This document shows positions 52,532-55,352 of a stretch of 64,000 nucleotides of DNA, piece after piece. The DNA lies in NCBI RefSeq assembly GCF_004010195.1, contig NC_057749.1:8965787-9029786 (forward strand), in the 5' to 3' direction. How positions within the stretch are numbered: position 1 is the first letter of the stretch; every line of letters starts with the position of its first letter. The notes beneath the pieces were generated by a model. It worked only from the letters and a program-made list of their open reading frames with translations, made no database searches and was not told the origin of the DNA. The DNA is from Chiloscyllium plagiosum. Lineage: Eukaryota. A program made the position numbers and the translations under genes.

Positions 52532-53589
52532 TCTGTTTTATAATGCATCTGTGGAGAGCTGTGGGATCAAAGGCACTACATAAATACAAGGTTTTGTTGT
52601 TTCTTGTTTGATATTATAAAGTTAAATATGGTACAGTGCTTTCCAAATACATTTACAATTCTATCCTGTTTCAAAAGTAAACATTACTTGGGTATGTGTT
52701 ACTGCCCTCAAGTAACCTGTGCTCCACAATAAATGGACAAGACCCAACAAATTATGAAAGTTGGCAAGACTCTACTGACTTAGTCTTTAACTTAACTGTG
52801 AGAAATAGCTGGTGTGCAGTGGAGTCTGCTCTCCTCCTTGCAAACAGTGTAATGCCTTTCTTATTTTAACTAACAGAAAGGGATTATATCACCATAGTAT
52901 CTGGTCAAACTGTTCTCGTTTTTCCGCCAGTCGTAGGCTGAAGGTGTGTTTAATTGTCCACTTTAGCAAACAAACAACTGTCAAGCAACTAATGCAATCA
53001 TTGTCATGTGTGGCAAGTTGGCAGGAATTTCTGATTTCCCAATCTGTTTTATGAGTTGATCTTAAAAGTGTCTCAGAGCTGAACGTGGCCAATTAAATAA
53101 TATTGTGACCATAAAGCACAGCGCTGGCAAATTGATAACTGTGAGAGTTGTATTTGTCTTTGAAGGCAATGCTGTAATTCCAGGTTTGAGTGAGAGGAAA
53201 GGGTACCTCAGGTTGTCAGGCATCTCTGACTGTTAACACCTCAAACTGCCATGTATAAGTTGTCATCTGTGGACAATACTTTGGCTTGAGTCAGGAGGTC
53301 GTGCGTTCAAACCCCATTCTCCATAATTAAAACAGATCATCTGTGATAACACTGCAGTGCAATACTGAGGGAGTCCTTCGTTGTCAGTGGTGCTGTCTTT
53401 TAGATGAGTGCTTGAGCCAAGTCCATGCTTTTACCTGTGGGTCCTGTGACAATGTTTTGAAGTCACGCAACACCAGGTTATAGTCCAAAAGGTTTACTTG
53501 AAATCACAAGTTTTCTGAGCGCTGCCCTTTCATCGGGTGAAGTAATTTGGACAGTGACTACATTTCCTTTTTTTAGGAAACAGGATTTT

Positions 53590-53892
53590 TTTCATTCATT
53601 CACAGGATGTGGGCCTGGCCAGTGTTTATTGCCCAGAGGGAGGTTAAGAATTGACAACATTTCTGTAGGCAACACCAGGTAAGGATGACAGTTTCCTTCC
53701 CTAAAGGAAATTAATAAACCAGATGTTTTTTTCCTGACAATTGGCAATCGATTCATAGTCATCATTATACTCTTAATTCCAGATTTTCATAGAATTCAAA
53801 TTCCACCATTTGCCCCATTGGGATTTGAACCCAGGTCCCCAAAGCATTAGCTTGGGCATTGGATTAACAATCCAGCGATAATAACACTGGGC
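53590..53892 (-). mobile_element. tRNA-derived SINE of a third family sharing its tail with the non-HER1 CR1-clade LINE
   Basis: Head ggcccagtgttattatcgctggattgttaatcc...gggttcaaatccc; tail gggcaataaa...ggcccacatcctgtgaatgaat. Another copy lies at 58682-59012 (+), with fragments at 9590-9720 and 10040-10420. Confidence 0.7.
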
Positions 53893-54190
53893 CAGTGCCA
53901 GTCCAAGGATTGCACCCATGAATGTAATTCCAGTGAGCTGGGGCATTGGAGAGTATTCACAACAGGAAACCGGTTCCTAGAGTCAGGAACACCAACCCAC
54001 CTGAAAGGTTTTGAGAAATGAGCAGCAAAATTTAAACTGCCATTGGGAAGCTGCATTTGTGCCTTCCACTCAATTAAGATCACACTGCTCCCTCCCCCCA
54101 CTCCTGCCACTCGCATTCTGCCAGCTCCAGAGAGGCCTGGTCAATTCCCCCAGTATTCCTGATCACCTTTCCATGTTGCAGTGTAGATAA

Positions 54191-54431
54191 GAGCTGAAAA
54201 TGTGTTGCTGGAACAGCGCAGCAGGTCAGGCAGCATGCAGGGAACAGGAGAATCGACGTTTCGGGCATAAGCCCTTCTTCAGGAAACAAATGCAGCTTCC
54301 CAATGGCAGTTTAAATTTTGCTGCTCATTTCTCAAAACCTTTCAGGTGGGTTGGTGTTCCTGACTGTAGGAACTGGTTTCCTGTTGTGAATACTCTCCAA
54401 TGCCCCAGCTCACTGGAATTACATTCATGGG
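54191..54431. mobile_element. PLE family A end fused to an inverted copy of adjacent host DNA
   Basis: PLE at 54191-54285; 54286-54435 is the reverse complement of 53911-54060; 14-bp TSD tgcagtgtagataa. Confidence 0.9.
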
Positions 54432-55352
54432 TGCAGTGTAGATAAACCCTCTGCTGAATCTCCTTTGTTATTCTCCCATGTTCCACCTCTATCATTCCTG
54501 CTCAAAGGGGCAGGTTTACATATTTCCTAAGCAGGGATGTAAAGAGTGCAGTTATAAATGATGGAGACCAATGTTACGCAAATCTTCAGAGTCATAATAA
54601 ATCAGCTATTCGTGGGAATTCATCAACTCATTGTGTAACTCACCCACACCTTCGGCACACAGGCTGTTTGGTTTGGTACTAGTTGCATGAAAGAAACCAA
54701 ACAAAGCTTGGAGTGGGCTGCAGCTGGAAGCATTTACAAATAAGGTTGAGTGGCCATCACTTTGGGAGCCATGTTGCAGATGCTAGCAGACTGCCTGTGA
54801 TGTTACAGCATTACAGGGGGGGGCTGCAATATATATTGTGATAAAGGTCACTGCAGTCTTACCAGACCGTAGAGTAACTGTCTGATTGGAGAAAGAGATG
54901 ACTACTGGTGGTTTAAACTGAGGGTCCCCACATTATCAGGTGAGGAGTGAGGTTACCTTTATGGTAACCTTAGCCGATGCAGGAATTGAACCCCTCACAC
55001 TACATCACAAACCAGCCATGCGAGCTAACCGACCTCCCAGTATGCTGTATCACATTCACTTCATTGACTTTTTGAGGAACTAAATGTAAAATCTCTTCAC
55101 ACTCATGTTGTTTTTGATTCAGTTCAGTTTAGTGTACAGCTTGTAATTCTCATCTGGACCGCCATCTCAGCATCTCGCCCCAGTATCCTGTCTGATGCTT
55201 CAGAGTCACATTGTGTCATCTGAGACTGTTCATAGCAGGGGTGTGTGTGTGTGTGCATTGTGTTGTACAGTACAGTACATGTATAGTACATATTTTAGTT
55301 GCTGGGTATGAAACACAACATTTCCCTAAGTCACAGGCCCAATCCCTATACG

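What the first reader, a model, noticed from the sequence alone, without database searches (positions are those of the whole stretch)
53911..54445. PLE integration captured 150 bp of neighbouring host DNA in inverted orientation
Seen: TSD tgcagtgtagataa (54177-54190), then the PLE family A arm ending just past the hammerhead (54191-54285), then the reverse complement of 53911-54060 (54286-54435, two mismatches), then the TSD again (54432-54445). The palindromic tgca is shared by the TSD and the copied segment as a 4-nt microhomology. Host DNA sits exactly where sibling inserts have their inverted PLE arm. Inference: the second nicked end primed on nearby genomic DNA or nascent RNA instead of the PLE template. 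This is a snapshot of how the inverted arm is made and of a route by which PLEs create host-sequence hairpins (150-bp stem, about 225-nt loop holding a ribozyme motif on the minus strand).
Basis: partly seen in the sequence, partly recalled or inferred. Interest (0 to 1): 0.7.

Follow-up and report, generated by a model that had tools for sequence, protein, structure and literature searches.

The report
Retroelement insertion that copied neighbouring DNA backwards
A short Penelope-like retroelement jumped into this shark-type genome and, in the same event, a 150-base backwards copy of nearby host DNA was laid down where the element's second half normally sits; this is a rare but repeatable mishap that shows how these elements finish inserting.

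Summary
One 14-nt target-site duplication encloses a 95-nt Penelope-like-element (PLE) arm and a 150-nt inverted copy (2 mismatches) of DNA that lies 117-266 nt upstream.

It was one insertion event. A contig from a second organism label (B) runs straight from 54176 to 54432, so that site is empty and holds a single target copy. Contigs from two studies of organism A carry the filled form. At both mismatches the inverted copy keeps B's bases, so the copy was probably exact when made.

Siblings normally pair a "tail-less" arm with a "tailed" arm (62 of 71 two-arm junctions). Here the tailed arm is replaced by host DNA. A screen of 135 further loci found two more flank-derived fillers: L076 (inverted) and L129 (direct, between two arms).

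All three share one rule. The junction at the tail-less arm's usual inner end is blunt, and the filler's far end sits in a 3-6-nt microhomology.

Favoured model (inferred): the reciprocal nicked 3' end primed on nearby flank sequence instead of PLE RNA, and a homology-free template jump then joined the two strands. L1 shows analogous events, so this is a new variant of a known kind.

The parts
53911..54060 (+). Source segment of host DNA that was copied; starts with TGCA
   Evidence: The only near-identical genomic copy is 54286-54435. Present in organism B within a contig that continues into both flanks (X11 record 13; X8 record 25).
54061..54176 (.). 116-nt host spacer between the source segment and the target site; part of the hairpin loop
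   Evidence: no other copy in the window. Covered in organism B.
54177..54190 (+). Target-site duplication, copy 1 (TGCAGTGTAGATAA)
   Evidence: family D5, 100%. Organism B has one copy only. Its last bases AGATAA resemble the element's AGATCA next to the start site, so BLAST extends the arm to ruler position 491.
54191..54285 (-). PLE terminal module ('arm'), element sense on the minus strand. It is the tail-less type (outer end at ruler position 482) and ends at the family's usual inner terminus (ruler position 388).
   Evidence: 100% identical to L001:2123-2217. The longer copy L001 runs from a GIY-YIG-like ORF into this module.
54255..54282 (-). Minimal hammerhead core boxes: CUGAAGA, a GGGC-UUAU-GCCC hairpin, and GAAAC-GUC. 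The predicted cleavage site lies after 54255. The 5' strand of helix I is absent in this copy.
   Evidence: Read from the sequence. No Rfam hammerhead match. The motif type is recalled from Cervera and de la Pena 2014, of which only the search listing was seen.
54286..54435 (-). Inverted copy of 53911-54060 (148 of 150 identical). It sits where siblings carry the tailed arm, and joins the PLE arm bluntly at 54285/54286.
   Evidence: Absent in organism B. In organism A, single contigs run from it into TSD copy 2 and the right flank (X5 record 23; X1 record 8).
54432..54445 (+). Target-site duplication, copy 2; its first 4 nt (TGCA) overlap the end of the inverted copy

Best explanation
This is one aberrant integration of a shark Penelope-like mini-element. 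It happened in the lineage of organism A after that lineage separated from organism B.

Shown: the target TGCAGTGTAGATAA was duplicated. Everything between the two copies (the 95-nt PLE arm plus a 150-nt inverted copy of DNA 117-266 nt to the left) is absent from the empty site in B.

Inferred mechanism:
1. The PLE endonuclease nicked both strands 14 nt apart.
2. The left 3' end primed reverse transcription at the 'tail-less' internal start site. It copied the terminal module to its usual 5' end, just upstream of the hammerhead.
3. The reciprocal 3' end (...ACACTGCA-3') normally primes at the 'tailed' start site of PLE RNA. Here it annealed instead through its terminal TGCA to nearby flank sequence of minus-strand sense (DNA or a transcript) and was extended for 146 nt.
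4. The reverse transcriptase, on reaching the 5' end of the PLE RNA, jumped without homology onto the free 3' end of that reciprocal strand, as it normally jumps onto the second PLE cDNA. This closed the insert.

The by-product is a 150-bp inverted duplication of host DNA: a 525-nt hairpin-capable locus with the ribozyme-bearing arm in its loop.
For: Single event:
- X11 record 13 (organism B) lies on 53761-54176 and continues directly at 54432-54900.
- depth over 54299-54392 is 0 in both B runs and 7-18 in both A runs.
- A contigs from two studies run from the copy through TSD copy 2 into the right flank.
- at 53972 and 53980 the copy carries B's bases, so it was probably exact when made.

The position equals that of the second arm:
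- 62 of 71 two-arm junctions pair one tailed with one tail-less arm, and inner ends cluster at ruler positions 385-390.

The two arms are made independently:
- in 34 of the 62 pairs the tail-less arm holds inner sequence that the tailed arm lacks, while the tailed arm holds the 33-nt tail that the tail-less arm lacks. Neither can therefore be a fold-back copy of the other.
- the tail-less arm is the longer one in 34 pairs against 9 (binomial p = 1.7e-4).
- Frangieh et al. 2024 (PMC11167929, main text read): purified PLE protein cleaves and extends both strands, and starts at two adjacent internal sites whose interval is the tail.

Junction rule:
- in X, L076 and L129 the junction at the tail-less arm's ...CAGGAA end has 0 nt of microhomology. 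The filler's far end has 4 nt (TGCA), 6 nt (GAATGG) and 3 nt (AGG).
- In X the microhomology is the very 3' terminus of the untrimmed 14-nt overhang.
Against: - The final sequence is equally produced if the first cDNA end switched onto flank DNA and the TGCA pairing only resolved the break. Sequence alone cannot give the direction of synthesis.
- The template needed here (minus strand of the left flank) is the 5'-ending strand at the break, which resection would remove. An RNA template would solve this, but there is no RNA evidence.
- The polymerase could be a host repair enzyme rather than the PLE reverse transcriptase.
- There are only three events, so the junction rule rests on n = 3.
- The short-read contigs bridge the PLE/copy junction with only 22-24 nt on the PLE side, below the tool's 31-letter rule. 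Continuity through the arm therefore rests on the assembly.
Confidence: 0.55

Rival explanations
1. Primary-end switch (snap-back). The first cDNA finished on PLE RNA, then its 3' end folded back onto its own resected plus-strand flank at 54060 and copied leftwards to 53911. The new ...GGGTGCA-3' end then paired with the TGCA terminus of the reciprocal overhang (microhomology-mediated end joining).
For: It gives the same sequence. The template would be the 3'-ending strand, which resection leaves single-stranded. L129 fits if the first cDNA invaded the other end's 3' overhang. Self-annealing of L1 cDNA ends after resection is proposed in PMC11702581 (passages read).
Against: The switch point has 0 nt of microhomology in all three events. 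A polymerase needs primer-template pairing to start at an internal site, and known reverse-transcriptase template jumps land on acceptor 3' ends, not internal sites (general knowledge; PMC8857657 and PMC6895275 seen in a listing only).
Confidence: 0.2
2. Host repair synthesis. The PLE only made the break and the 95-nt cDNA. A host polymerase (a Pol-theta-like or replication-type short-range template switch) produced the flank copy while the break was being repaired.
For: Microhomology-primed copies of nearby DNA in either orientation (inverted in X and L076, direct in L129) are typical of such repair. PMC11702581 attributes similar L1-site alterations to end processing. Short target-like and tail-like fillers occur in L056 and L074.
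Against: The fillers are long and of uniform size (about 117, 129 and 150 nt), close to the length of a PLE arm. The blunt junction at the exact RNA 5' terminus points to a reverse-transcriptase jump. This rival concerns only which enzyme acted and is otherwise compatible with the best explanation.
Confidence: 0.15
3. Two separate events. A normal two-arm PLE insertion came first, and the tailed arm was later replaced by a local inverted duplication.
For: No intermediate state was sampled, so this cannot be strictly excluded.
Against: The copy ends exactly in the TSD with a 4-nt overlap and begins exactly at the arm's canonical terminus. B lacks everything. The same architecture recurs at L076.
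Confidence: 0.05
4. Assembly artefact: a chimeric or fold-back read created the inverted duplication.
For: PLE palindromes coincide with assembly gaps elsewhere (window 2127 onward, L001, L030). Contigs cannot span the high-copy arm.
Against: Independent short-read contigs from two studies of organism A carry copy-TSD2-flank in one piece, and one of them carries flank-TSD1-arm start. The TSD logic and the empty site in B fit a real insertion.
Confidence: 0.03

Closest known systems
Canonical EN+ Penelope-like element insertions: an inverted 5'-truncated copy plus a 30-40-bp 'tail' at one end (Craig et al. 2021, PMC8557442, passages read; Arkhipova et al. 2013, PMC3846280, passages read; Frangieh et al. 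2024, PMC11167929, main text read)
   Same: TSD-bounded insert; the arm starts at the tail-less start site; the terminal module carries a hammerhead motif; siblings are head-to-head pairs with the tail on one side only.
   Different: The second arm is not element sequence but a copy of host DNA from 117-266 nt away. None of the three papers, in the parts read, describes target-flank DNA in that position.
L1 twin priming / 5' inversion (Ostertag and Kazazian 2001, seen only as a reference; described in PMC11702581)
   Same: The reciprocal 3' end of a staggered break primes a second synthesis through microhomology; the TSD is preserved; the result is an inverted segment inside the insert.
   Different: In twin priming the second template is the same L1 RNA, so the inverted segment is element sequence. 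Here the template is flank sequence.
[quoted passage not shown] 2024 preprint, PMC11702581, passages read; its figures S9/S10 not seen)
   Same: A rare by-product of target-primed reverse transcription (3 such insertions reported there); nearby genomic DNA is copied into the junction.
   Different: A different element class (GIY-YIG PLE rather than APE-type L1). These are natural germline copies rather than induced events in cultured cells. The copy replaces a structurally defined arm, and a consistent blunt/microhomology asymmetry is seen.
Short-range template-switch mutations (PMC7954356, search listing only) and Pol-theta filler DNA at T-DNA junctions (recalled; PMC10923293, search listing only)
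   Same: Inverted or direct copies of sequence within a few hundred bp, primed by microhomology.
   Different: Those events need no retroelement and are usually shorter. Here the copy is coupled to a reverse-transcribed arm inside one TSD.

Membership tests
EN+ Penelope-like element (family of the 95-nt arm) | C-terminal GIY-YIG endonuclease ORF upstream of the terminal module in longer copies | tested here: inconclusive
   L001:2982-3476 matches Pfam PF01541 with E = 1.5e-4 at 22.5 bits, against a curated cut-off of 22.6. A ...LLYIGETGRLLAERFREH... motif is visible. The L006 arm continues into the same ORF in antisense.
EN+ Penelope-like element (family of the 95-nt arm) | Telomerase-like reverse transcriptase domain | not tested
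   No full-length copy was fetched; L001 is interrupted by an N gap.
EN+ Penelope-like element (family of the 95-nt arm) | 30-40-bp 'tail' present at only one end of the insert | tested here: met
   The tail is 33 nt (ruler positions 483-515). 62 of 71 two-arm junctions have exactly one tailed and one tail-less arm.
EN+ Penelope-like element (family of the 95-nt arm) | Inverted 5'-truncated copy adjacent, with TSD of variable length | tested here: met
   head-to-head pairs flanked by 9-21-nt direct repeats, mostly 14-16 nt.
Minimal type-I hammerhead of PLEs (min-HHR) | CUGANGA and GAAA boxes, a helix II hairpin, a 1-bp helix III, and the cleavage triplet | tested here: inconclusive
   The boxes are readable at 54255-54282 on the minus strand. 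Rfam gives no hammerhead hit on the window at gathering score, nor on L001/L129 at E <= 1. In this copy the 5' strand of helix I is missing. Self-cleavage cannot be tested with these tools.
L1-type twin priming | The inverted segment is copied from the element's own RNA | tested here: not met
   The inverted segment is 148/150 identical to host DNA at 53911-54060 and has no match to the PLE ruler.
Retrotransposition-associated templated insertion from nearby genomic DNA | Extra sequence inside the TSD-bounded insert, near-identical to DNA within about 1 kb, and absent from the empty site | tested here: met
   for X. L076 and L129 have sources 41 nt and 248 nt from the insert; no empty site was examined for those two.

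The most novel reading that the evidence does not exclude
PLE integration is normally completed by a homology-independent template jump. The reverse transcriptase moves from the 5' end of the mini-element RNA onto whatever 3' end is growing from the reciprocal nick. The tail-less start is the processive 'primary' reaction and the tailed start is the reciprocal one. When the reciprocal end mis-primes on nearby sequence (possibly nascent RNA), the element writes 117-150-nt copies of host DNA into the genome. This single family could then have made tens to a few hundred host-sequence inverted or direct duplications. A rough extrapolation from 2 of 97 sampled loci to 3,939 pattern hits gives a 95% interval of about 10-286. 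Some of these would be ready-made long hairpins.
Probability: 0.3. Interest if true: 0.6.

Novelty: new variant of a known kind. Interest (0 to 1): 0.45.

Why it matters
How Penelope-like elements finish integration, and how their inverted arms and one-sided tails arise, is still open. Frangieh et al. 2024 state that the later steps are yet to be validated. Natural 'accidents' like this one act as genomic records of the intermediate:

- They show that the tail-less arm can form without a tailed partner.
- They show that the partner's position can be filled by any strand growing from the other nick.
- They show that the joint at the RNA's 5' end needs no homology.

The event also shows a concrete, if rare, way in which a very abundant retroelement family creates long perfect inverted repeats of host sequence. 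Such repeats are potential sources of hairpin RNA or of genome instability.

Tried and rejected
- **Rfam.** No family reached gathering score on the window, and there was no hammerhead hit at E <= 1 on L001/L129 (only chance-level miRNA-type hits on the palindrome). The hammerhead label therefore rests on reading the motif.
- **Empty allele or haplotig in the assembly.** None found; the 1,401-nt locus matched only itself at full length.
- **RNA evidence.** No RNA holder was listed, and no RNA run was laid.
- **Earlier notes near the locus or by words.** Nothing.
- **Exact-match TSD finder.** It missed TSDs with one mismatch and mis-called the finding's own TSD. It was replaced by local alignment.
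- **First screens looked only for inverted copies** and missed the direct copy in L129. The screen was redone for both orientations.
- **Pure fold-back (self-copy) origin of the second arm.** Rejected for at least 34 of 62 tailed/tail-less pairs, because each arm holds sequence the other lacks.
- **L1-style hairpin-plus-replication foldback.** Rejected, because the right flank is intact and a TSD is present.
- **L015 filler (239 nt).** It is a piece of a high-copy repeat whose best other copies are 90-91% identical; its origin is unresolved.
- **L020.** Insertion into a 24-nt satellite; uninformative.
- **L113 and L001 inverted repeats.** They lie outside the inserts.
- **L072, L101 and L133.** No TSD found; unresolved.
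- **Gene context and transcription direction at the locus.** Not examined.

Full report
**1. Observation.**
- The structure is exactly as described. One search finds inverted-repeat arms at 53911-54060 and 54286-54435 (150 nt, 99%, 225 nt apart).
- One search also finds an exact 14-nt direct repeat TGCAGTGTAGATAA at 54177-54190 and 54432-54445.
- The two mismatches are at 53972/54374 and 53980/54366.
- TGCA at 54432-54435 belongs to both the copy and the repeat, and the source starts with TGCA.
- The 95 nt at 54191-54285 are a high-copy element: 19 other hits in the window, and 56 listed matches from 535 first-look candidates in the genome.
- The source segment has no other near-identical copy in the 3.56-Gb assembly.
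- As single-stranded DNA, 53911-54435 folds into the full stem at -214.4 kcal/mol.

**2. What the arm is.**
- A longer copy, L001 (contig C1), runs from an ORF with a GIY-YIG-like motif into the same module. Pfam PF01541 gives E = 1.5e-4 at 22.5 bits, against a cut-off of 22.6.
- The family is therefore a Penelope-like element (PLE). The reverse transcriptase was not examined.
- I used the natural stretch L001:2090-2604 (reverse complement) as a ruler of 515 positions. On it the finding's arm is positions 388-482.
- The minimal hammerhead boxes sit at positions 390-418. In the window they lie at 54255-54282 on the minus strand. Rfam does not recognise them.
- Earlier notes on this genome independently describe about 130-nt hammerhead-headed PLE mini-elements, often as palindromes, in a shark.

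**3. Normal anatomy of siblings.**
- In 38 loci taken from the best genome matches, plus the window copies, the usual insert is a head-to-head pair directly flanked by a 9-21-nt TSD.
- One arm starts at about position 482 ('tail-less'). The other starts at about position 515 and so carries a 33-nt 'tail'.
- Over all fetched loci, 62 of 71 two-arm junctions are such mixed pairs and 9 are other combinations.
- Inner ends cluster at positions 385-390, just 5' of the hammerhead. That is the same point at which the finding's arm stops.
- This matches the published PLE signature of an inverted 5'-truncated copy with a 30-40-bp tail at one end (PMC8557442, passages).
- It also matches the in vitro finding that PLE protein cleaves and extends both target strands, starting at two adjacent internal sites whose interval is the tail (PMC11167929, main text).
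- In the finding the tail-less arm is present, and the host-derived copy occupies the place of the tailed arm.

**4. One event, and real.** Logan contigs of four runs were laid on 53500-54900.
- In organism B, run X11 record 13 (1,363 nt) lies on 53761-54176 and continues without extra letters at 54432-54900. This is an empty site with one copy of the 14-mer.
- Both B runs have zero depth over 54299-54392 while their flanks are covered.
- In organism A (two studies), X5 record 23 (54262-54740, 0 other letters) and X1 record 8 (54264-54900) run from the end of the PLE arm through the inverted copy and TSD copy 2 into the right flank.
- X1 record 1 runs from the left flank through TSD copy 1 into the arm.
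- Caveat: only 22-24 nt of these contigs lie on the PLE side, under the tool's 31-letter rule, because the arm is extremely repetitive. Continuity through the arm rests on the assembly.
- A and B differ by about 2.6% here (23 other letters in 885 nt).
- At both arm mismatches B carries the bases of the inverted copy (A at 53972, C at 53980). The copy was therefore probably exact when made, and both later changes fell in the source arm.
- No empty allele was seen in the assembly. Whether one segregates in A is unknown.

**5. Is it a one-off?**
- The pattern for an arm ending at position 388 and followed by A or C has 3,939 exact genomic matches, against 0 for the control.
- I fetched the first 100 listed hits, which are in positional order on contig C1. 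They fall in 97 loci.
- A both-orientation screen covered 147 pieces: 135 fetched loci plus 12 partly overlapping window pieces. It flagged flank-derived fillers inside inserts in three: the finding, L076 and L129.
- L076: a tail-less arm is followed at once by an inverted copy of about 117 nt (94% identical, one 3-nt indel) of DNA that lies 41 nt left of the insert.
- L129: a perfect 15-nt TSD encloses a tail-less arm, then a 129-nt direct copy (128/129 identical) of DNA 248 nt to the right, then a tailed arm.
- The yield is thus 2 of 97 in the pattern sample (95% interval 0.25-7.3%) and 0 of 38 in the best-match sample.
- The other flags were a tandem duplication (L008), a satellite (L020) and a repeat outside the insert (L113).

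**6. Junction rule and mechanism.**
- In all three events the joint at the tail-less arm's ...CAGGAA end is blunt, with no shared nucleotides.
- The filler's far end lies in microhomology: TGCA with the TSD in X, GAATGG with the target in L076, and AGG with the inner end of the tailed arm in L129.
- In ordinary pairs the tail-less arm reaches further 5' than the tailed arm in 34 cases, the reverse holds in 9, and the two are equal within 5 nt in 19 (p = 1.7e-4).
- In those 34 pairs each arm contains sequence the other lacks, so the arms are two independent RNA-templated products and not a fold-back copy.
- The simplest scheme (inferred) has three steps. The tail-less cDNA runs to the RNA's 5' end. 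The strand growing from the reciprocal nick is usually a tailed cDNA of variable length. The reverse transcriptase at the RNA end then jumps without homology onto that strand's 3' end.
- In X and L076 the reciprocal 3' end primed by microhomology on nearby flank sequence instead of PLE RNA. In L129 it first copied PLE RNA and then switched to the flank.
- In X the priming nucleotides are the very 3' terminus of the untrimmed 14-nt overhang.

**7. Rivals.**
- A switch of the first cDNA end onto its own resected flank, later resolved at TGCA, gives the same sequence. It uses a strand expected to be single-stranded, but it needs a start at an internal site with no homology in all three events.
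- A host repair polymerase may have done the copying. This changes the enzyme, not the event.
- A two-step origin and an assembly artefact are unlikely for the reasons given in section 4.
- What the template was (the 5'-ending DNA strand, or a transcript) is open. No RNA evidence was obtained.

**8. Comparison and novelty.**
- For PLEs, the parts I read of PMC8557442, PMC3846280 and PMC11167929 do not describe target-flank DNA in the place of an arm. PMC3846280 does mention palindromes at inverted junctions and proposes self-priming and template jumps.
- Three full-text searches surfaced no paper describing it for PLEs.
- I therefore rate it a new variant of a known kind: ordinary in principle, but a clean natural intermediate for a poorly understood integration pathway.

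**9. Limits.**
- There are only three events.
- Contigs were used rather than reads.
- There were no long reads and no RNA.
- L076 and L129 have no empty-site control.
- The pattern sample covers only the first 59 Mb of one contig, and only a junction class chosen to be non-canonical.

Noticed in passing
L076 (G000:C1:23783405-23784825), 475-842: A second insert with the same architecture as the finding. A tail-less arm at 629-723 is followed directly by an inverted copy of about 117 nt (94% identical) of 475-587. There is no full TSD; only GAATGG is shared between the copy's end and the target.
   Followed up: yes
L129 (G000:C1:56422236-56423656), 614-984 and 1233-1361: A two-arm insert with a perfect 15-nt TSD. 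It holds a 129-nt direct copy (128/129 identical) of DNA 248 nt downstream, placed between the inner ends of the arms. The junction is blunt at the tail-less arm and has an AGG microhomology at the tailed arm.
   Followed up: yes
71 two-arm junctions in L001-L135 and the window: The tail-less arm reaches further 5' than the tailed arm in 34 pairs, against 9 for the reverse (19 equal within 5 nt). Most inner ends stop within a few nt of one point, 2-3 nt 5' of the hammerhead's CUGAAGA box. This suggests a defined 5' end of the template RNA and different roles for the two start sites.
   Followed up: partly
L015 (G000:C74807:426-2120), 552-790: A 239-nt non-PLE filler lies between two arms inside a 12-nt TSD. 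It belongs to a high-copy repeat (thousands of first-look candidates; best other copies 90-91% identical), so its source could not be identified.
   Followed up: partly
L018 615-655 and 748-788; L073 about 760-800: The same 41-nt sequence adjoins PLE arms at ruler positions about 376-384 in two unrelated loci. It is probably the upstream region of another subfamily or of a non-autonomous relative. L018 also has a nested 60-nt tailed fragment.
   Followed up: no
L008 999-1291: A 146-nt tandem duplication (95% identical) comprises the last 20 nt of the PLE tail, the TSD and about 110 nt of flank, right next to a canonical insert.
   Followed up: no
L050 724-739; L056 724-754; L074 (20 nt after the tail): Short fillers at PLE junctions: 16 nt of unknown origin in L050, 31 nt that look like slipped copies of the target site in L056, and a 20-nt internally deleted repeat of the tail in L074.
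   Followed up: no
window 2127 onward; L001 2606-2928; L030 947-1522: Assembly gaps (runs of N) sit inside or right after PLE inverted pairs. These palindromes evidently break the assembly.
   Followed up: no
window 53617-53900: A very high-copy repeat of about 280 nt (8,673 first-look candidates; listed copies 73-83% identical) lies immediately left of the copied segment. It contains a tRNA-like GGGATTTGAACCC stretch on the minus strand, so it is probably a SINE.
   Followed up: no
window 54185-54190 compared with the element's tail: The last bases of the target (AGATAA) resemble the element's AGATCA next to the tail-less start site, so BLAST extends the arm to ruler position 491. This may be priming microhomology or chance.
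   Followed up: no
X, L076 and L129 fillers: The three flank-derived fillers have similar lengths (150, about 117 and 129 nt), close to the length of a PLE arm (95-128 nt). The reason is unknown.
   Followed up: no
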